Below, one piece after another: positions 4,228 through 39,555 of a stretch of 42,421 nt of DNA. The DNA comes from a virus, in UHGV virus genome UHGV-0165032. One strand, 5' to 3'. The notes beneath the pieces were generated by a model. It did not search any database and was not told the origin of the DNA. It worked only from the letters and a program-made list of their open reading frames with translations. Each line of letters begins with the position of its first letter. Position 1 is the first letter of the stretch. Position numbers and translations under genes: made by a program.

Positions 4228-4590
4228 ATGGGGAAATCGCAGCGTGAAAAAGGGAAGCGCGGAGAACGGGAACTTGCCAATCTCCTTAAGGACCATGGAT
4301 ACAACTGCCGTAGGGGCCAGCAGTATTGTGGCACCAACGGGGATGCGGATGTGGTGGGACTTCCAGGCATACATATCGAGTGCAAGAGGGTAGAGCGCCT
4401 TAACCTTGAGGATGCCATGACACAGGCCATAGATGATACAGCGGCAGAGAAATTACCATTCGGCGAGGAAATATACCCTGCAGTGTTCCACCGCCGCAAT
4501 CGTGGCTCCTGGTTGGTTACAATGCGCCTGGATGACTGGATGAACCTGTATCGAGAATGGGGTTCTGGTAGACAGTTGGATGGTGGTTGA
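4228..4590 (+). CDS. Holliday-junction resolvase, Hjc-like PD-(D/E)XK fold
   Basis: KGKRGERELANLLKDHGY...GDADVVG...IECK pattern resembles Hjc-type resolvases. Confidence 0.5.
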   Translation: MGKSQREKGKRGERELANLLKDHGYNCRRGQQYCGTNGDADVVGLPGIHIECKRVERLNLEDAMTQAIDDTAAEKLPFGEEIYPAVFHRRNRGSWLVTMRLDDWMNLYREWGSGRQLDGG

Positions 4591-5326
4591 TATGAGGGAG
4601 AGCGTAGTATTTTACAGAAGTTTTTATGAAGCTGTCAAGGAACTCCCGCCAGAACAGTTCAAAGCTGCGGTAACTGCGATTATGGAGTATGGTCTGAATG
4701 AGAAAGAACCGGAAACAAGTGGGATTGAACGGACGATATTCCTCCTCACCAAACCCCAGATTGATGCCAATAACCGCAAATACCTAAATGGAACCAAGGG
4801 AGGCAGACCTAAAACCTCGCAGGAACCTACCAATAACCAAACCAGAACCAAAAGTAAACCTACAAATAACCAAACCGAAACCAAACCAGAACCCAAGGTA
4901 AAGGATAAGGTAAAGGATAAGGTAAAGGTAAAGGATAATGATAATACATTTTGCCCGGAGCCGGATAAATCCGCTCCAGGCAGCCCGGTGGCAATATCCT
5001 TTATGCTAAATGATAAATCCATGTATGATGTGACGGAGAATGACGTGGACATGTTCCAGAAGCTCTATCCGGCCATTGATGTCATGCAGGAGATGCGTAA
5101 GGTTGTGGGGTGGTGTGAGAGCAATCCGAAGAACCGAAAGACCAGAAGCGGGGCAAAGCGGTTCCTGAACGGATGGCTGTCAAGGGCGCAGGACAGGGCA
5201 AGACCATCCCAAATACCCGTAAAGCAAAACAATAATAAATTCCACAATTTTGACCAGCGTGATACAGATTATGATGCCATTGCCATGCAGAAAACGCAGG
5301 AATGGCTAAAAGGAGGAGATGATTGA
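4580..5326 (+). CDS. phage replisome organizer / replication initiation protein with a DnaD-like C-terminal domain
   Basis: N-terminal ESVVFYRSFYEAVKELPPEQFKAAVTAIMEYGL plus C-terminal DnaD-like FQKLYPAID...GWCESNP...RFLNGWLSRAQ, separated by a low-complexity linker. Confidence 0.6.
   Translation: MVVDMRESVVFYRSFYEAVKELPPEQFKAAVTAIMEYGLNEKEPETSGIERTIFLLTKPQIDANNRKYLNGTKGGRPKTSQEPTNNQTRTKSKPTNNQTETKPEPKVKDKVKDKVKVKDNDNTFCPEPDKSAPGSPVAISFMLNDKSMYDVTENDVDMFQKLYPAIDVMQEMRKVVGWCESNPKNRKTRSGAKRFLNGWLSRAQDRARPSQIPVKQNNNKFHNFDQRDTDYDAIAMQKTQEWLKGGDD
4896..4940 (+). repeat. tandem ggtaaaggataa-type repeats encoding the KVKDKVKDKVKVKD linker
   Basis: direct repetition visible in the sequence. Confidence 0.7.
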
Positions 5327-5506: not shown

Positions 5507-5521
5507 CGGAGGAAGGAAACC

Positions 5522-6448
5522 ATGGGATTAGAAGTGTTTGACCATTACGAATGTGATGGTCAGATGGGGATAGAGGACATTGCCCCGGGACGGCAGCTCA
5601 CCCACCTGTCCCTATTCAGCGGGATTGGGGGCCTGGATTTGGCTGCGGAGTGGGCAGGATTTGAAAGTGTGGGGCAATGCGAGTTTGCGGATTACCCCAC
5701 AAAGATACTGGAGCGGCATTGGCCGGATGTGCCACGCTGGAGGGATATAAGGACATTAACGGGAGAAAGCTTTTATGAACGAACAGGTTTGCGGACAGTT
5801 GACATTATTTCAGGAGGATTTCCCTGTCAACCATTTTCTAACGCCGGGAAGCGCAGAGGCGAGGAAGATGACCGTTACCTCTGGCCGGAAATGGTTAGGG
5901 TTATCGCGGAACTGCGGCCCACTTGGGTTGTTGGAGAAAATGTTGCTGGAATCATCAATATGGCATTCGACAAGGTGCTATCTGACCTGGAGGGCCAAGG
6001 ATACGCCACACGGACATTTCTTATACCAGCTTGCGGCGTCAACGCCCCACACCAGCGATACAGGACCGCAATCGTGGCCCACGCCAACCGCATCGGACAG
6101 TTTCACAGGACAGATGAGGTCAAGCCAGCAGAAAGAGGGAAGCCGCCACAGCCTGAATCTTGCAGATGCTGTGAAAATATGGCCGACACCAGTAGCAAGG
6201 GATTTCAGGACGGGTCAGGGAAAAAGATGCCAGAGGAGCAGGACGCTGAACGATACAATAGCCGCGGAGGGGAACCAGATGGAACCAGGCAGTGGGCAGT
6301 TGAACCCAACGTGGGTAGAGTGGCTCATGGGATTCCCAACCGGGTGGACAGAATCAAGTGCCTTGGAAACGCGGTAGTGCCGCAGCAGTTCTATCCGATT
6401 TTCCGAGCAATATCAGAAATAGAGTTAGGGACCAAAACACGTATTTAG
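5522..6448 (+). CDS. DNA (cytosine-5)-methyltransferase, phage Dcm-type
   Basis: Motif I LFSGIGG, motif IV GGFPCQPFSNAG, motif VI VVGENV, motif VIII PHQRYRTAIVA, and C-terminal EPNVGRVAHGIPNRVDRIKCLGNAVVPQ (motif X-like). Confidence 0.85.
   Translation: MGLEVFDHYECDGQMGIEDIAPGRQLTHLSLFSGIGGLDLAAEWAGFESVGQCEFADYPTKILERHWPDVPRWRDIRTLTGESFYERTGLRTVDIISGGFPCQPFSNAGKRRGEEDDRYLWPEMVRVIAELRPTWVVGENVAGIINMAFDKVLSDLEGQGYATRTFLIPACGVNAPHQRYRTAIVAHANRIGQFHRTDEVKPAERGKPPQPESCRCCENMADTSSKGFQDGSGKKMPEEQDAERYNSRGGEPDGTRQWAVEPNVGRVAHGIPNRVDRIKCLGNAVVPQQFYPIFRAISEIELGTKTRI
5775..6377 (+). CDS. 200-aa ORF in the +1 frame, nested inside the MTase gene. It carries TRD-like WPTP(T/V)A(S/R)D repeats and LNPTWVEWLMGFPTGWTE, a motif IX-like segment
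   Basis: Own SD (GGAGA 5762-5766) 8 nt before ATG 5775. The frame is open from 5760 to 6377. The motifs resemble target-recognition and motif IX segments of C5-MTases. Confidence 0.35.
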   Translation: MNEQVCGQLTLFQEDFPVNHFLTPGSAEARKMTVTSGRKWLGLSRNCGPLGLLEKMLLESSIWHSTRCYLTWRAKDTPHGHFLYQLAASTPHTSDTGPQSWPTPTASDSFTGQMRSSQQKEGSRHSLNLADAVKIWPTPVARDFRTGQGKRCQRSRTLNDTIAAEGNQMEPGSGQLNPTWVEWLMGFPTGWTESSALETR

Positions 6449-6460
6449 AGGAGAAAAGCC

Positions 6461-6580
6461 ATGAGTAGCAGATACAGAGAAGAACAGGAGTCAGTAAAGG
6501 GCTGTTCTGGGGAATGCGATTATTGCGGAGATGCCGAAGCGTGTGAACAAAGCGGCTATTGCAAGGAGGCAGAGAGATGA
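6461..6580 (+). CDS. 39-aa Cys-rich peptide (CSGECDYCGDAEACEQSGYC)
   Basis: GAGGAGAAAAG SD then ATG 6461. Confidence 0.35.
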   Translation: MSSRYREEQESVKGCSGECDYCGDAEACEQSGYCKEAER

Positions 6581-6795
6581 AGGCAATGTTAGAAATAAAA
6601 AATATGCCAGAAAGCTGCTATGATTGCCCATGCTGCTCCATTGATAAGCAGTGCAAGGCCAAAGAACACAAAGACATACCAAATGTGTTTCATGGAAGGC
6701 CGGGATGGTGTCCGCTCATAGTGGTGGAGGATGCACCGTTGGCGGAGGCCCGGTGTTACCTGGACATGCCATGCCGGTTCCAGACACCAATATAG
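6577..6795 (+). CDS. Cys-rich small protein (CYDCPCCS...C...C)
   Basis: ATG overlaps the previous stop (ATGA); AGGAGG SD upstream. Confidence 0.45.
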   Translation: MKAMLEIKNMPESCYDCPCCSIDKQCKAKEHKDIPNVFHGRPGWCPLIVVEDAPLAEARCYLDMPCRFQTPI

Positions 6796-8995: not shown

Positions 8996-9142
8996 AAATA
9001 AAAACGAAAGCAGAGAACGTATGTGCGAAAATAACAAGCGATGGTCACCCGCCAAGATGATTCCACCGCTCCCGTAAATACGTCTGAGTATATTATACCT
9101 TACTCGGACGTGAAAATCAATACGAATGAGGAGGATATAATT

Positions 9143-10189
9143 ATGAGTACACAGACAATAAAAGCTGAAATCATCAACAATGTACTGGTAGCAATGTCCT
9201 TATATATCATGGAGCAGCAGACTCTTACCATTCTGCAAAATGTAATGCAGCAGGAATTGGTTAGGGTGAACATGGAAGAAATAACTACACTTCCAGTAGA
9301 AAGAAAAAATGATATAAGTCAACGGAATCAGTACATAATACAGTTATTCCTGATTAAAAAGCGTGATTTAGCAAGAGGAACCAAAGAAAACTATCTTAAT
9401 TCCATACGAAGATTGCTGACAGAGATAAGCACAAAATCACTGGACCAGATGGACACCACTGATATTGATTGGTATTTATCGCGATATGAAATCAGAAATG
9501 TGTCCAGTGGAGGAAAGAAAAACCAGCCTAGCACTTATAATAACGAGCGCCGTTTTTTGTCAGCATTCTTTACATGGATGCGCCTTGAGAAGCTTATTAC
9601 AGATAATCCGGTAGAGTCTATACCGGCTAAAAAAGTACCCATTAAACCAATTGATTACTACAGCCCGGAAGAATCTGCAAGATTAAGGGATGCGTGCAAA
9701 AATATCCGCGAGAGGGCCTTGCTAGAGGTACTTCGAAGTACTGGAGCCAGGATAGGGGAGATTGCAGAAATAACTCTGGACCAGATAGACATGAGAACCG
9801 GCGATATTTGGATACAGGGAGAGAAAGGCGGAAGATATCGGACTATCTATCTGGATGATGATGCGCGTCATTACTACGGACTGTATTTGGACAGCAGGAA
9901 AGATGATTGTCCATATATGTTCCCACGCTCCAGAAAACCGTATGGAAAGATGACTACTTGTGGATTTCGGGCGATATTGAAAACCATAAGGAAAAGAGCT
10001 GGACTCACATGTCGCGTATATCCGCATAAGTCACGAAAGACGCTGGGGATGAATCTGAAAAATCGAGGGGTTGATATTGGAACCATACAGGAAATTATGG
10101 GACATGCAGACCCAGGAGTTACGGCACGTTATTATGCACAGTCTAACCCGCGCACTCTTCGTTCAGTAAGAGAAAGAGTTAATGTGTAG
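9143..10189 (+). CDS. tyrosine site-specific recombinase (XerC/XerD-like phage integrase family), second copy in this genome
   Basis: Catalytic residues in order: R (ARIGE), K, HxxR (HKSRKT), H (GHAD) and Y (ARYY). SAM-like N-terminal domain. GAGGAGG SD before ATG 9143. Confidence 0.8.
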   Translation: MSTQTIKAEIINNVLVAMSLYIMEQQTLTILQNVMQQELVRVNMEEITTLPVERKNDISQRNQYIIQLFLIKKRDLARGTKENYLNSIRRLLTEISTKSLDQMDTTDIDWYLSRYEIRNVSSGGKKNQPSTYNNERRFLSAFFTWMRLEKLITDNPVESIPAKKVPIKPIDYYSPEESARLRDACKNIRERALLEVLRSTGARIGEIAEITLDQIDMRTGDIWIQGEKGGRYRTIYLDDDARHYYGLYLDSRKDDCPYMFPRSRKPYGKMTTCGFRAILKTIRKRAGLTCRVYPHKSRKTLGMNLKNRGVDIGTIQEIMGHADPGVTARYYAQSNPRTLRSVRERVNV

Positions 10190-38315: not shown

Positions 38316-39389
38316 TTACATGCTGTTTAATTTTTCAAAGTGCTTATTAATTTTTTTGTTCTGCCGGACGCTTTCCAGGTCAATTACATTTCTATATACT
38401 GCTTTCATGATATTGTCGCTGGCCCATCCCCCCCGTTGTAAAATATATTGGTCCGGTATGCCTATGGCGTGCATAATGGATGCAGCATAATGCCGGAGGT
38501 CGTGAAAGCGGAAATGGGGTATGTCAATCTTTTTGAGTACTCGTCCGAATCGGTGTGTGATGTAATCCGGGTTCATGTCAACCAATTTTCCTTTTTTTCC
38601 AGATATCCGGTCAATTACAAATGCTGGCATTTCTACATCCCGTGTGCTATCATCCGTCTTAGGCTGTTTAATGTACCATTGATTATCTGGCCCCTTGACC
38701 ATATTGTCTCTTACATGGATTATCTTTCCGTCCACGTTCTTGTCGGTTAGGGCGCTTATTTCTCCACGCCTAAGTGGTCCAAAGGCTGCTAGTAATACAG
38801 CTATTTCTAAATCAGTACTTTTGATTGCCTCCAGCAGCTTTTTAATATCATTGTCATTGGGGCAATATAAGTCAGGACGTTTTTTCTGAGGCAGCTTAAC
38901 TTTTAGAGTTAAATACGGTGCAAACATCTCCAGGGATGCAGATAACAGGCCATAGGCATTACGGACCGTCTTTGGAGAGAGTTGTTTTGAAGCCAAATCA
39001 CTTATCCATATCTGTACAGATGGATTAGTTAGCTCTGAAAGCCGTTTACGCCCAAATGCGCCGCTGAAATACTGTCTTTGCAATCCGGTATACCCTCTGA
39101 GCGTAGAAGGGCTTAAAACGCCTTTCTTGACGCTCAAATAACGCTCGATAGCTTGGCTCACTGTTATATCTTCTTCCCCGTCCTCTTCCGGGTCATTGTA
39201 TTGTTCTATAGGTTTATCTTTCATGTCTAATTTCCATCTGGTAGCCATCTCCTTTGCCTCTTTACGTGATGGGGCAACAAAGCTTTTGTAATGCCGCTTA
39301 CCTTTATCATCTGTATACAGATACACTTGCACTCGGACATTTCCAGACGGCAGTACTCCTTTTTTTCTTTTCGGGGCTTTTGTAGTCAT
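38316..39389 (-). CDS. int: phage integrase (tyrosine recombinase with an N-terminal AP2-like arm-binding domain)
   Basis: VRVQVYLYTDDKGKRHYKSF N-domain; catalytic R (LRRGE), HxxR (HDLRH), W (GGWAS), Y (AVYRN). Start at MTTKAP, with GGAGGAAAGAGAA SD. Confidence 0.85.
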   Translation of the reverse strand: MTTKAPKRKKGVLPSGNVRVQVYLYTDDKGKRHYKSFVAPSRKEAKEMATRWKLDMKDKPIEQYNDPEEDGEEDITVSQAIERYLSVKKGVLSPSTLRGYTGLQRQYFSGAFGRKRLSELTNPSVQIWISDLASKQLSPKTVRNAYGLLSASLEMFAPYLTLKVKLPQKKRPDLYCPNDNDIKKLLEAIKSTDLEIAVLLAAFGPLRRGEISALTDKNVDGKIIHVRDNMVKGPDNQWYIKQPKTDDSTRDVEMPAFVIDRISGKKGKLVDMNPDYITHRFGRVLKKIDIPHFRFHDLRHYAASIMHAIGIPDQYILQRGGWASDNIMKAVYRNVIDLESVRQNKKINKHFEKLNSM

Positions 39390-39555
39390 TTCTCTTTCCT
39401 CCTTCAATTGATTTTCCTAAAAATAGGTATAAAAAATACAGCTCCGCAAACATCTTGCAAAGCCGCCCCGAAGATGGTACAATATAGGTGCGAATTATAG
39501 TACATATCTTCGGGTATGTAAGCCGGTTCCTGTTGGCGCAGGGGCCGGTTTTGTT

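What the first reader, a model, noticed from the sequence alone, without database searches (positions are those of the whole stretch)
5522..6448. C5-methyltransferase locus encodes conserved MTase motifs in two overlapping reading frames (nested +1-frame 200-aa ORF with its own SD)
Frame 1 (5522..6448) is a complete phage Dcm-type MTase. It has motif I FSGIGG, motif IV GGFPCQPFSNAG, motif VI ENV, motif VIII QRYRTAIVA and C-terminal EPNVGRVAHGIPNRVDRIKCLGNAVVPQ. The segment between motif VIII and the C-terminal motif is low-complexity and charged: KPAERGKPPQPESCRCCENMADTSSKGFQDGSGKKMPEEQDAERYNSRGGEPDG. The same DNA read in the +1 frame is open for 206 codons (5760..6377). It starts with GGAGA (5762..5766), then 8 nt, then ATG 5775. 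It encodes duplicated WPTPTASD and WPTPVARDFRTGQ motifs and LNPTWVEWLMGFPTGWTE. These resemble the target-recognition and motif-IX (LxGFPxxW) segments found between motifs VIII and X in other C5-MTases. Both frames staying open is unlikely by chance, roughly 0.05 for frame 1 across 6100..6290 and 0.006 for frame 2 across 5760..6075. Three explanations are possible. First, an overprinted gene encodes a separately translated TRD/motif-IX subunit that complements the catalytic frame-1 protein, as in the two-subunit M.AquI that is encoded by overlapping ORFs. Second, +1/-1 ribosomal or transcriptional frameshifting yields a conventional VIII-TRD-IX-X enzyme with switchable specificity. Third, a recently frameshifted gene or a sequencing error.
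Basis: partly seen in the sequence, partly recalled or inferred. Interest (0 to 1): 0.8.

Follow-up and report, generated by a model that had tools for sequence, protein, structure and literature searches.

The report
Methyltransferase gene with nested second subunit
This phage DNA cytosine methyltransferase gene carries a second, conserved protein-coding gene inside it in another reading frame, which most likely supplies the DNA-recognition part the main protein lacks; this layout has been demonstrated for only one enzyme but proves to be widespread and unannotated.

Summary
Frame 1 (5522..6448, 308 aa, "alpha") carries C5-methyltransferase motifs I, IV, VI, VIII and X. The +1 frame (ATG 5775..6377, 200 aa, "beta") has its own Shine-Dalgarno sequence and carries two WPTP modules plus LNPTWVEWLMGFPTGW.

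This is not chance, a sequencing error or a recent frameshift. The same nested layout occurs in most related viral loci and in 68 of 73 bacterial and archaeal genome loci found through beta alone. It is present in phages of Firmicutes, Proteobacteria and Actinobacteria. Both frames are under selection:
- Alpha's synonymous sites become constrained exactly where beta starts.
- Beta dominates over the TRD and motif IX region.
- Alpha's frame is kept open there against expectation (about 0.4% of permutations).
- The beta start codon and SD are conserved.

Profile comparison places beta's C-terminal motif on canonical motif IX. Alpha alone has nothing matching TRD or motif IX.

Best reading: a two-subunit C5-methyltransferase, closest to M.EcoHK31I rather than M.AquI, but with the TRD on beta and beta's N-terminus overprinted on motifs IV-VIII. 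Frameshifting is not supported. Both structure predictions were inconclusive, and activity is untested.

The parts
5508..5513 (+). Shine-Dalgarno sequence (GGAGGA) of the alpha gene, 8 nt upstream of ATG 5522
   Evidence: Read directly from the sequence.
5522..6448 (+). Alpha ORF, 308 aa, 34.5 kDa, pI 5.6. It is the catalytic subunit with motifs I, IV, VI, VIII, a linker, then motif X.
   Evidence: PF00145 matches aa 27-200 at 9.5e-37. phrog_363 matches aa 24-304 at 2.3e-85. hhalign to conventional enzymes aligns only I-VIII (23-187) and, separately, X (278-300).
5615..5632 (+). Alpha motif I, FSGIGG (AdoMet binding)
   Evidence: aligned to M.HhaI.
5813..5839 (+). Alpha motif IV, GGFPCQPFS (catalytic Cys). 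The same DNA encodes beta EDFPVNHF.
5936..5944 (+). Alpha motif VI, ENV. The same DNA encodes beta LEKMLLES.
6053..6079 (+). Alpha motif VIII, QRYRTAIVA
6080..6295 (+). Alpha linker (aa 187-258). It is low-complexity, not conserved as protein, and is a passenger reading of beta's TRD DNA that is kept free of stop codons.
   Evidence: Alpha identity here is 0.24 versus 0.39 for beta, and beta third codon positions vary most. The frame stays open in only 0.4% of beta-synonymous permutations. The VIII-to-X distance is always a multiple of 3.
6362..6385 (+). Alpha motif X, LGNAVVPQ. Beta's TAG stop (6375-6377) is embedded in its GTA GTG codons.
   Evidence: hhalign places it on the canonical motif X.
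5762..5766 (+). Internal Shine-Dalgarno sequence (GGAGA) for beta, inside alpha codons T-G-E
   Evidence: An SD-like GGAG or AAGGAG lies 8-10 nt upstream of the aligned start in 44 of 48 distinct loci. It is retained even where the alpha residues differ.
5775..6377 (+). Beta ORF, 200 aa, 22.3 kDa, pI 8.4, in the +1 frame and wholly inside alpha. It is the proposed TRD plus motif IX subunit.
   Evidence: phrog_1008 at 2.6e-39. 6,744 homologs with near full-length coverage. 38,052 representative clusters. Start codon conserved.
5775..6074 (+). Beta N-terminal region (aa 1-100), overprinted on alpha motifs IV-VIII. Its proposed role is association with alpha.
   Evidence: Alpha synonymous-codon identity rises from 0.42 to 0.68 exactly at the beta ATG (Mann-Whitney p = 1.8e-9). 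Beta-frame similarity exceeds the alpha-only null with median z = 5.8. The role is inferred from M.EcoHK31I beta deletion data.
6075..6179 (+). Beta TRD module A, WPTPTASDSFTGQMRSSQQKEGSRHSLNLADAVKI
   Evidence: The module recurs in L004, L006 and other loci. Selection here is dominated by the beta frame.
6180..6296 (+). Beta TRD module B, WPTPVARDFRTGQGKRCQRSRTLNDTI..., with a spacer
   Evidence: The window has the L006 layout minus two internal modules.
6297..6347 (+). Beta motif IX, QLNPTWVEWLMGFPTGW. It overlaps alpha AVEPNVGRVAHGIPNRV.
   Evidence: Beta identity is 0.81 versus 0.62 for alpha. hhalign places it on the canonical motif IX: P = 0.066 alone, and E = 1.1e-5 together with X and collinear. 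In the homolog Eris gp77 it is followed in frame by motif X.

Best explanation
The locus encodes a two-polypeptide DNA (cytosine-5) methyltransferase from one stretch of DNA read in two frames.

The two products:
- Alpha (5522..6448) is the large catalytic domain. It has motifs I-VIII, then a non-conserved linker, then motif X.
- Beta (5775..6377, +1 frame, with its own SD and ATG inside alpha) carries an N-terminal region, two WPTP-headed target-recognition modules and motif IX. Together these make up the small domain that alpha lacks.

What is shown: both reading frames are real coding frames under purifying selection. The layout is ancient and widespread. Alpha has no TRD or motif IX of its own. 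Beta's C-terminal motif aligns to canonical motif IX.

What is inferred:
- Beta is translated by internal initiation on the same mRNA.
- Alpha and beta associate non-covalently into an active enzyme that methylates phage DNA against host restriction, as shown experimentally for M.EcoHK31I.
- Beta's N-terminal 100 residues serve association with alpha.
- The number and order of WPTP modules set target specificity.

Likely origin: a frame change after motif VIII split a single-chain enzyme, giving the layout still seen in Mycobacterium phage Eris. A second one-base change between IX and X then returned motif X to the alpha frame.
For: 1. ORFs and motifs are as described.
2. The layout is conserved.
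 - 56 of 84 alpha-selected loci meet strict criteria. Most of the rest are cut by contig ends or are poly-G variants, and motif X is always at the motif IX frame minus 1.
 - In 68 of 73 beta-selected genome loci, one alpha-frame ORF spans the whole beta match, and 64 of 73 alpha ORFs have motifs IV, VI and X.
 - The same layout occurs in phages of Mycobacterium, Bacillus, Paenibacillus, Lacticaseibacillus, Burkholderia, Pseudomonas, Klebsiella, Salmonella, Escherichia and Vibrio.
3. Selection acts on both frames.
 - Alpha synonymous-codon identity is 0.42 before the beta ATG, 0.68 inside the nested ORF and 0.55 after the beta stop (p = 1.8e-9).
 - In TRD and IX, beta third codon positions vary most, and beta identity exceeds alpha identity.
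 - Beta-frame similarity over IV-VIII exceeds the alpha-only null with median z = 5.8.
4. The alpha frame stays open across TRD in only about 0.4% of permutations. TRD length varies from 183 to 714 nt but is always a multiple of 3.
5. The beta ATG (GTG in a few loci) with an SD is conserved in 44 of 48 loci.
6. Alpha lacks TRD and IX. Pfam, NCBIfam and PADLOC methyltransferase profiles stop at about aa 200. hhalign of native alpha gives I-VIII and X as separate pieces. The in-silico chain alpha(I-VIII) + beta(TRD-IX) + alpha(X) aligns collinearly over 261 columns with conventional enzymes at E = 7e-39, with IX on IX and X on X.
7. The window's beta profile hits Eris gp77 at E = 1e-17, and in gp77 motif IX is followed in frame by motif X.
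8. There is experimental precedent. M.EcoHK31I beta is encoded entirely in another frame within alpha, carries motif IX and is required for activity. N-terminal deletions of beta weaken association with alpha (PMC2836561 and PMC3404938).
Against: - There is no direct evidence of beta translation, alpha-beta binding or methylation for this locus or this sequence family.
- Both structure predictions were low-confidence: beta alone gave pLDDT 53, and a natural I-VIII-TRD-IX fusion gave pLDDT 56 with the TRD below 50.
- The motif IX assignment rests on a short alignment. It is not significant alone (P = 0.066), and Pfam did not extend over it.
- The beta profile has no hit in the PDB.
- For the most distant proteobacterial-type phages, the excess beta-frame similarity over IV-VIII is weak (z = 1.3-2.4).
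- About one fifth of related viral loci carry frame variants that break the layout, so intact alpha and beta are not always maintained.
Confidence: 0.75

Rival explanations
1. Beta is a real, selected overlapping gene, but it is not a methyltransferase subunit. It would have an independent function, such as a regulator or an anti-defence protein, and alpha would work alone or with another partner.
For: Beta has no Pfam, NCBIfam, PADLOC or PDB match. Its N-terminal 100 residues have no counterpart in conventional C5-methyltransferases. The structure models are uninformative.
Against: Beta is essentially never found apart from alpha. Alpha lacks any conserved TRD or motif IX. Beta's C-terminus aligns collinearly with canonical motif IX directly upstream of alpha's motif X. 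In the Eris homolog the beta-type TRD, IX and X form one polypeptide.
Confidence: 0.1
2. One conventional polypeptide, I-VIII-TRD-IX-X, is made by programmed frameshifting: +1 after motif VIII and -1 between IX and X, or transcriptional slippage.
For: The motif order along the DNA is the conventional one, and the in-silico joined chain aligns end to end with single-chain enzymes. Natural one-frame I-VIII-TRD-IX variants exist.
Against: Two shifts per gene would be needed. Alpha's frame is kept open through 60-240 codons of TRD against expectation, which frameshifting would not require. Beta's frame is open and selected for 100 codons upstream of the supposed shift site and has its own conserved SD and ATG. 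A canonical slippery heptamer lies between IX and X in only 1 of 48 loci. The window has no homopolymer run of 6 or more.
Confidence: 0.05
3. The gene is recently frameshifted, a pseudogene or a sequencing error. The +1 ORF would be the remnant of the original frame.
For: Related loci do show frame variants, many at poly-G tracts.
Against: The same two-frame layout, with both frames open, recurs from Clostridia to Actinobacteria and Proteobacteria phages. It shows selection signatures in both frames. A near-identical alpha protein (P0121, with 19 member sequences) exists in independent assemblies.
Confidence: 0.02
4. The frame-2 conservation is only a by-product of frame-1 conservation, and no second protein is made.
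For: Over motifs IV-VIII alpha is the dominant constraint: alpha identity is 0.78 versus 0.63 for beta. The null model itself gives 28-45% beta-frame identity.
Against: Over TRD and IX the beta frame is the more conserved one, and its third codon positions vary most. Beta-frame similarity over IV-VIII exceeds the alpha-only null, with none of 300 permutations reaching the observed score for nearly all loci at 55-90% alpha identity. The synonymous-site step coincides with the beta ATG. Conventional C5-methyltransferases with the same motifs have 10-33 stops in the +1 frame.
Confidence: 0.02

Closest known systems
M.EcoHK31I (E. coli, YGGCCR), a two-polypeptide C5-methyltransferase (Lee, Kam & Shaw 1995, as described in PMC2836561 and PMC3404938)
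   Same: Beta is encoded entirely within the alpha gene in another reading frame. [quoted passage not shown] Both are needed for activity in that enzyme. The beta N-terminus contributes to alpha-beta association there.
   Different: In M.EcoHK31I the predicted TRD is assigned to alpha. Here the VIII-to-X interval of alpha is an unconserved passenger frame, and the TRD-like WPTP modules are on beta. Here beta also extends 100 residues upstream over catalytic motifs IV-VIII. M.EcoHK31I is part of a restriction-modification system, whereas this gene is an orphan in a phage replication module.
M.AquI (Agmenellum quadruplicatum, CYCGRG), an alpha/beta C5-methyltransferase encoded by overlapping ORFs
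   Same: It is a split C5-methyltransferase in which the small subunit carries part of the variable region and motif IX. A true homolog of the window's beta, Mycobacterium phage Eris gp77, has this layout: gp78 carries I-VIII and gp77 carries TRD+IX+X in the +1 frame with a 173-nt overlap.
   Different: In M.AquI the small subunit also carries motif X, and the ORFs overlap only at their ends. In the window, motif X is read in the alpha frame and beta is wholly nested.
Multispecific C5-methyltransferases of Bacillus phages (SPR, phi3T, rho11s, H2); cited from my own knowledge
   Same: These are phage-encoded orphan C5-methyltransferases with several target-recognising modules in tandem between motifs VIII and IX. 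Here, 1 to 6 shuffled WPTP-headed modules occupy the same position.
   Different: Those enzymes are single polypeptides read in one frame. Whether each WPTP module confers a separate specificity is untested.
Annotated but uncharacterised nested ORFs in phage records
   Same: These are the same gene family and arrangement: 'putative Mte8-like protein' ORF30 inside the C-specific methylase ORF31 of phage K1G, the 'g55 internal gene' of Paenibacillus phage Shelly, paired 'DNA methyltransferase (x2)' annotations in RefSeq Paenibacillus phages, and PHROG 1008.
   Different: They are annotation labels only. I found no functional or evolutionary description in the searchable literature.

Membership tests
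DNA (cytosine-5) methyltransferase, PF00145 / TIGR00675 | Catalytic-domain motifs I (FxGxG), IV (PCQ), VI (ENV) and VIII (QxRxR) in one polypeptide | tested here: met
   Alpha aa 27-200 matches PF00145 at 9.5e-37 and TIGR00675 at 2.7e-29. It aligns with M.HhaI and M.HaeIII.
DNA (cytosine-5) methyltransferase, PF00145 / TIGR00675 | Motif X (GNxVxxxV) at the C-terminus of the same polypeptide | tested here: met
   Alpha 278-300 aligns to canonical motif X at E = 0.0049 for full alpha and 3.2e-4 for the C-terminal piece.
DNA (cytosine-5) methyltransferase, PF00145 / TIGR00675 | TRD and motif IX between VIII and X in the same polypeptide (conventional monomer) | tested here: not met
   Nothing in alpha aligns to the canonical 163-288 interval. 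This interval is unconserved in the alpha frame. The motif IX-like sequence is in the +1 frame.
M.EcoHK31I-type two-polypeptide C5-methyltransferase | Small-subunit ORF lies entirely within the large-subunit ORF in another frame | tested here: met
   Beta 5775..6377 lies inside alpha 5522..6448 in the +1 frame. This is conserved in related loci.
M.EcoHK31I-type two-polypeptide C5-methyltransferase | Large subunit has motifs I-VIII and X; small subunit has motif IX | tested here: met
   The motif IX assignment has moderate support only: P = 0.066 alone, E = 1.1e-5 collinear with X, and natural IX-X contiguity in Eris gp77.
M.EcoHK31I-type two-polypeptide C5-methyltransferase | TRD located on the large subunit | tested here: not met
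   Selection in the VIII-to-X interval acts on the beta frame: beta identity exceeds alpha identity, and beta third codon positions vary most. The modular WPTP units are in beta.
M.EcoHK31I-type two-polypeptide C5-methyltransferase | Both polypeptides are made and both are required for methylation | not testable with these tools
   This needs expression and methylation assays. The only indirect evidence is the conserved SD and ATG and selection on both frames.
M.EcoHK31I-type two-polypeptide C5-methyltransferase | Sequence homology to M.EcoHK31I alpha and beta | not tested
   The M.EcoHK31I sequence could not be obtained. The original paper and the supplements are not held.
M.AquI-type split C5-methyltransferase | Small subunit carries motifs IX and X; ORFs overlap only terminally | tested here: not met
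   In the window, motif X is in the alpha frame, and the X frame equals the IX frame minus 1. The feature is met in the homolog Eris gp77/gp78.
Programmed ribosomal frameshift gene | Conserved slippery site at the frame junction, with the zero frame closing soon after | tested here: not met
   A heptamer is present in 1 of 48 loci. The alpha frame stays open to motif X.
Phase-variable (simple-sequence-repeat) methyltransferase | Homopolymer or short repeat tract within the ORF whose length varies between close relatives | tested here: not met
   The window has no run of 6 or more. The feature is met in a related lineage with G8, G9 and G10 variants.

The most novel reading that the evidence does not exclude
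The nested beta gene defines a very large, ancient and uncurated family of overprinted subunits of phage and prophage C5-methyltransferases.
- It comprises tens of thousands of 50%-identity clusters across bacterial phyla.
- The entire DNA-recognition domain is encoded in the alternative frame as a shufflable array of WPTP modules.
- Recombination between modules would retarget or multiply specificity, while alpha reads through the same DNA as a neutral linker.
- Beta's N-terminal domain arose by overprinting on the catalytic core itself.

If so, two-subunit C5-methyltransferases would be a major class among mobile elements rather than rare exceptions. The TRD assignment in M.EcoHK31I might also need revisiting.
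Probability: 0.4. Interest if true: 0.8.

Novelty: new variant of a known kind. Interest (0 to 1): 0.62.

Why it matters
- Textbook and review statements treat C5-methyltransferases as monomers with two known exceptions (PMC3404938). This locus belongs to a family showing that a nested two-subunit design is common in phages and prophages of many phyla.
- Gene callers and curated libraries (Pfam, NCBIfam, PADLOC) miss or mislabel the second gene.
- At 600 nt, it is among the longer same-strand overlaps in prokaryotic viruses supported by comparative evidence for selection on both frames, including an overlap with catalytic motifs.
- Practically, expressing alpha alone would probably give an inactive enzyme.
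- Specificity prediction for such enzymes must read the +1 frame.
- The modular TRD array and the poly-G switches in relatives suggest rapid retargeting of phage anti-restriction methylation.

Tried and rejected
- Pfam and NCBIfam on frame 2 gave no hit.
- Pfam on the in-silico chimera and on the IX+X piece gave no extension or hit. The library is insensitive to this family's C-terminus, including alpha's genuine motif X.
- The beta profile against PDB sequences gave nothing relevant.
- AlphaFold2 of beta alone gave pLDDT 53, so no fold search was run.
- AlphaFold2 of a natural one-frame I-VIII-TRD-IX variant (P0240) gave pLDDT 56 with the TRD below 50. This was inconclusive, so no fold search was run. 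My first alignment for it was discarded because beta N-termini were misaligned under catalytic columns.
- The database search with the chimera at first seemed to show single-chain relatives with 100% coverage. Inspection showed they are ordinary alpha proteins plus 21 frameshift-type I-VIII-TRD-IX variants lacking X. No true I-to-X single chain with a WPTP TRD was found.
- A look-up of the contig encoding P0026 found no record.
- Literature searches for EcoHK31I, Mte8, internal gene, overprinting and heterodimeric C5-methyltransferase found no description of this family. The original M.EcoHK31I paper and the supplements are not held.
- Two profile scans failed on wrong coordinates.
Full report
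**1. Observation**

- Frame 1 (5522..6448, 308 aa, here called alpha) follows a GGAGGA Shine-Dalgarno sequence. It carries FSGIGG (motif I), GGFPCQPFS (IV), ENV (VI), QRYRTAIVA (VIII), a charged low-complexity stretch (aa 187-258), and EPNVGRVAHGIPNRVDRIKCLGNAVVPQ (motif X).
- The +1 frame is open from 5760 to 6377. GGAGA at 5762-5766 is followed by 8 nt and then ATG 5775. The 200-aa product (here called beta) contains WPTPTASD, WPTPVARDFRTGQ and QLNPTWVEWLMGFPTGW.
- Pfam PF00145 and TIGR00675 match only alpha, and only motifs I-VIII (aa 27-200 and 29-204). PADLOC methyltransferase profiles likewise stop near aa 200.
- Beta has no Pfam, NCBIfam or PADLOC match, but it hits PHROG 1008, labelled "DNA methyltransferase", at 2.6e-39.
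- The window is a temperate siphovirus-like genome. RusA lies just upstream of the methyltransferase gene, and portal, head, tape-measure and integrase genes lie elsewhere in the window.

**2. Not chance, and not an error**

I held one protein fixed and permuted its synonymous codons.
- The alpha frame stays open across beta's TRD-IX region in 0.4% of permutations. This holds for the window and as the median of 48 distinct relatives.
- The +1 frame stays open over alpha motifs IV-VIII in 1.6% of permutations for the window, with a median of 6.9%.
- Six conventional phage C5-methyltransferases have 10-33 stops in their +1 frame.

Conservation of the layout:
- Eighty viral loci were retrieved with alpha's catalytic part only, so they were unbiased with respect to frame 2. 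Most have the same layout: alpha open from motif I to GNAVVP, the +1 frame open from just upstream of motif IV to motif X, and LMGFP starting 41 nt before GNAVVP in the +1 frame.
- 56 of 84 loci meet strict criteria. Most of the remainder are cut by contig ends or are poly-G variants.
- Loci were also retrieved through beta alone from one genome per species. These come from Clostridia, Bacilli, several proteobacterial classes, Coriobacteriia, Bacteroidota, Chlorobiota, a CPR genome and methanogen MAGs. In 68 of 73, a single alpha-frame ORF spans the whole beta match, and 64 of 73 have motifs IV, VI and X in it. Beta is therefore essentially never a standalone gene.
- The nested layout is also present in phages Zerg (Mycobacterium), yong1 (Bacillus), BcepC6B, PMG1, KpV2811, SI7, K1G, Fayden, Shelly, R23.9 and Lc-Nu.
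- Some annotators have recorded the inner ORF, as the "g55 internal gene" in Shelly and the "putative Mte8-like protein" in K1G.
- The beta family is very large: 6,744 hits in the word-indexed search, and 38,052 representative clusters at E ≤ 1e-3 (20,866 at E ≤ 1e-10) in the exhaustive search.

**3. Both frames are selected**

In an alpha-guided codon alignment of 48 distinct loci, I measured the identity of synonymous codons among sequence pairs that share the same residue. It is 0.42 upstream of the beta ATG (alpha aa 25-84). It jumps to 0.68 within the nested ORF (aa 86-186) and falls to 0.55 after the beta stop. The step coincides with the beta start (Mann-Whitney p = 1.8e-9).

In a beta-guided alignment, which frame dominates switches along the gene:

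| Region | Alpha identity | Beta identity | Most variable position |
|---|---|---|---|
| Motifs IV-VIII | 0.78 | 0.63 | alpha third codon position |
| TRD | 0.24 | 0.39 | beta third codon position |
| Motif IX | 0.62 | 0.81 | beta third codon position |

Across 73 more distant loci, beta-frame BLOSUM similarity to the window over motifs IV-VIII exceeds a null that preserves each alpha protein and its codon usage. The median z is 5.8, and none of 300 permutations reached the observed score for nearly all loci at 55-90% alpha identity. The signal is weak (z = 1.3-2.4) for the most distant proteobacterial-type phages.

The beta start is conserved. An ATG (GTG in a few loci) sits at the same aligned position, with GGAG or AAGGAG 8-10 nt upstream in 44 of 48 loci. 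The SD persists even where the underlying alpha residues differ.

**4. What beta contributes**

Alpha has no TRD or motif IX.
- Against an alignment of six conventional phage C5-methyltransferases, native alpha aligns as two separate pieces: I-VIII (23-187 to 1-162) and X (278-300 to 289-311). Nothing matches the canonical 163-288 interval.
- An in-silico chain made of alpha 1-186, beta 100-193 and alpha 278-308, built from the same loci, aligns collinearly over 261 columns (24-303 to 1-311 of 315, E = 7e-39). Beta's QLNPTWVEWLMGFP falls on canonical motif IX (LTxRECxRLQGFPD), and alpha's LGNAVVPQ falls on motif X.
- A 54-residue IX+X piece aligns collinearly at E = 1.1e-5. Alpha's own C-terminus gives 3.2e-4 for X only.
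- Beta's profile alone gives only this motif IX match, and it is not significant (P = 0.066). Pfam did not extend over the chimera.
- A natural control supports the assignment. In Mycobacterium phage Eris, gene 78 encodes I-VIII and stops. Gene 77, in the +1 frame with a 173-nt overlap, encodes LPTP/FPTP modules, LNAAFSEWMMGWEEGW and then IIGNGVVVQ in one frame. The window's beta profile hits gp77 at E = 1e-17.

The region between motif VIII and motif IX is a mosaic of recognisable modules, each headed by [WFY]PTP. There are 1-6 per locus, shuffled among loci whose catalytic parts are 80-96% identical. The VIII-to-X distance takes 32 distinct values between 183 and 714 nt, always a multiple of three. 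The window has the L006 layout minus two internal modules.

**5. Mechanism**

The best-supported reading is a heterodimeric C5-methyltransferase.
- Alpha is the large catalytic domain (I-VIII and X, joined by a passenger linker).
- Beta is the small domain (TRD modules and motif IX), plus an N-terminal region overprinted on alpha's catalytic core.
- Beta is translated from its own SD and ATG.

This matches the one experimentally characterised case. In M.EcoHK31I, beta lies entirely within another frame of the alpha gene, carries motif IX and is required for activity. Progressive N-terminal deletion of beta weakens association with alpha (PMC2836561 and PMC3404938). By analogy, I infer that beta residues 1-100 serve alpha binding.

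The steps that are shown are coding and selection in both frames, the absence of TRD and IX from alpha, and the motif IX-like segment on beta. The steps that are inferred are translation of beta, heterodimer formation, activity, the role of the N-terminal region, and specificity set by the modules.

A plausible origin runs from a single chain, through a frame change after motif VIII (the Eris / M.AquI-like layout), to a one-base change between IX and X that returned X to the alpha frame (the window / M.EcoHK31I-like layout).

**6. Rivals**
- **Frameshifting to a single chain.** This is disfavoured. Alpha's frame is kept open through the TRD. Beta's frame is open, selected and has its own start 100 codons upstream of any shift site. 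A slippery heptamer between IX and X occurs in 1 of 48 loci. The window has no homopolymer run of 6 or more.
- **Recent frameshift or sequencing error.** This is excluded by the cross-phylum conservation.
- **By-product conservation.** This is excluded by the beta-dominant selection in TRD and IX and by the permutation tests.
- **A beta with an unrelated function.** This cannot be excluded, but it is disfavoured by beta's obligate nesting, alpha's missing parts and the Eris homolog.

**7. Limits**
There is therefore no structural support.
- The M.EcoHK31I sequence was not obtainable, so membership in its sequence family is untested.
- About a fifth of related viral loci carry frame variants. 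Thirteen of these 16 contain a G8-G12 tract. Among database proteins, 21 of 120 hits are one-frame I-VIII-TRD-IX products lacking X. Their DNA shows a frame change just after motif VIII, which leaves beta's N-terminal ORF and motif X orphaned.

**8. Novelty**

The principle is known from M.EcoHK31I. What differs here is that the TRD lies on beta rather than alpha, that beta is overprinted on catalytic motifs IV-VIII, and that the family is far larger and more broadly distributed than the literature suggests. Reviews describe two-polypeptide C5-methyltransferases as two exceptions. I found no description of this family in the searchable literature. I rate it a new variant of a known kind.

Noticed in passing
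Related loci L022, L026, L030, L035, L038-L042, L044, L045, L047 (for example L038:3104); also L034, L052, L054, L061, L063, L071: Phage contigs that are 97-98% identical differ in a poly-G tract (G8, G9 or G10) about 25 nt upstream of motif IX. G9 gives the standard alpha/beta layout, and G8 or G10 break it. Thirteen of 16 frame-variant loci carry a G8-G12 run. This is either homopolymer sequencing error or a phase-variable on/off switch of the phage methyltransferase. The window has no such tract.
   Followed up: partly
Window 6075-6296; L004, L006, L007, L012 and others: The beta TRD is built from shuffled [WFY]PTP-headed modules, 1-6 per locus. The window has the L006 layout minus two internal modules, consistent with deletion between WPTP repeats. 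This is reminiscent of the tandem TRDs of multispecific Bacillus phage methyltransferases.
   Followed up: partly
L182 (Mycobacterium phage Eris) 1235-2330: This is a homologous but different split. Gene 78 carries motifs I-VIII. Gene 77, in the +1 frame with a 173-nt overlap, carries TRD modules plus motif IX plus motif X in one frame, which is an M.AquI-like layout. Many Cluster A mycobacteriophage records list two 'DNA methylase' features at this place.
   Followed up: partly
L172-L175 (contigs encoding P0216, P0177, P0192, P0196): In these variants a frame change just after motif VIII fuses I-VIII to TRD-IX in one ORF. Motif X is left in the -1 frame, still open across the TRD, and the beta N-terminal ORF is orphaned. 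21 of 120 database hits have this form. It is unclear whether they are functional, decaying or assembly errors.
   Followed up: partly
Window 6375-6377: Beta's TAG stop codon is embedded in alpha's motif X codons (GCG GTA GTG, encoding A-V-V). The end of beta is thus fixed by alpha's most conserved C-terminal residues. The same is seen in most related loci.
   Followed up: no
Window 9041-10189 (+) and 38316-39407 (-): There are two separate integrase-family genes (PHROG 1) in one 42-kb phage-like window.
   Followed up: no
Window 6462-6580 and 6559-6795: Two small cysteine-rich ORFs lie directly downstream of the methyltransferase gene (CSGECDYCGDAEACEQSGYC; CYDCPCCSIDKQC...). Their function is unknown.
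   Followed up: no
Window 4580-5326: This 248-aa ORF upstream (PHROG 15768, unknown function) has a low-complexity KVKDKVKDKVKVKD / TNNQT repeat segment in its middle.
   Followed up: no
L084 (Pseudomonas phage PMG1) 1426-2187: In this RefSeq record only the beta-frame ORF is annotated, as 'DNA methyltransferase'. The enclosing alpha-frame ORF (1377-2210), which has motifs I, IV, VI, VIII and X, is not annotated. This shows that gene callers pick one frame or the other.
   Followed up: yes
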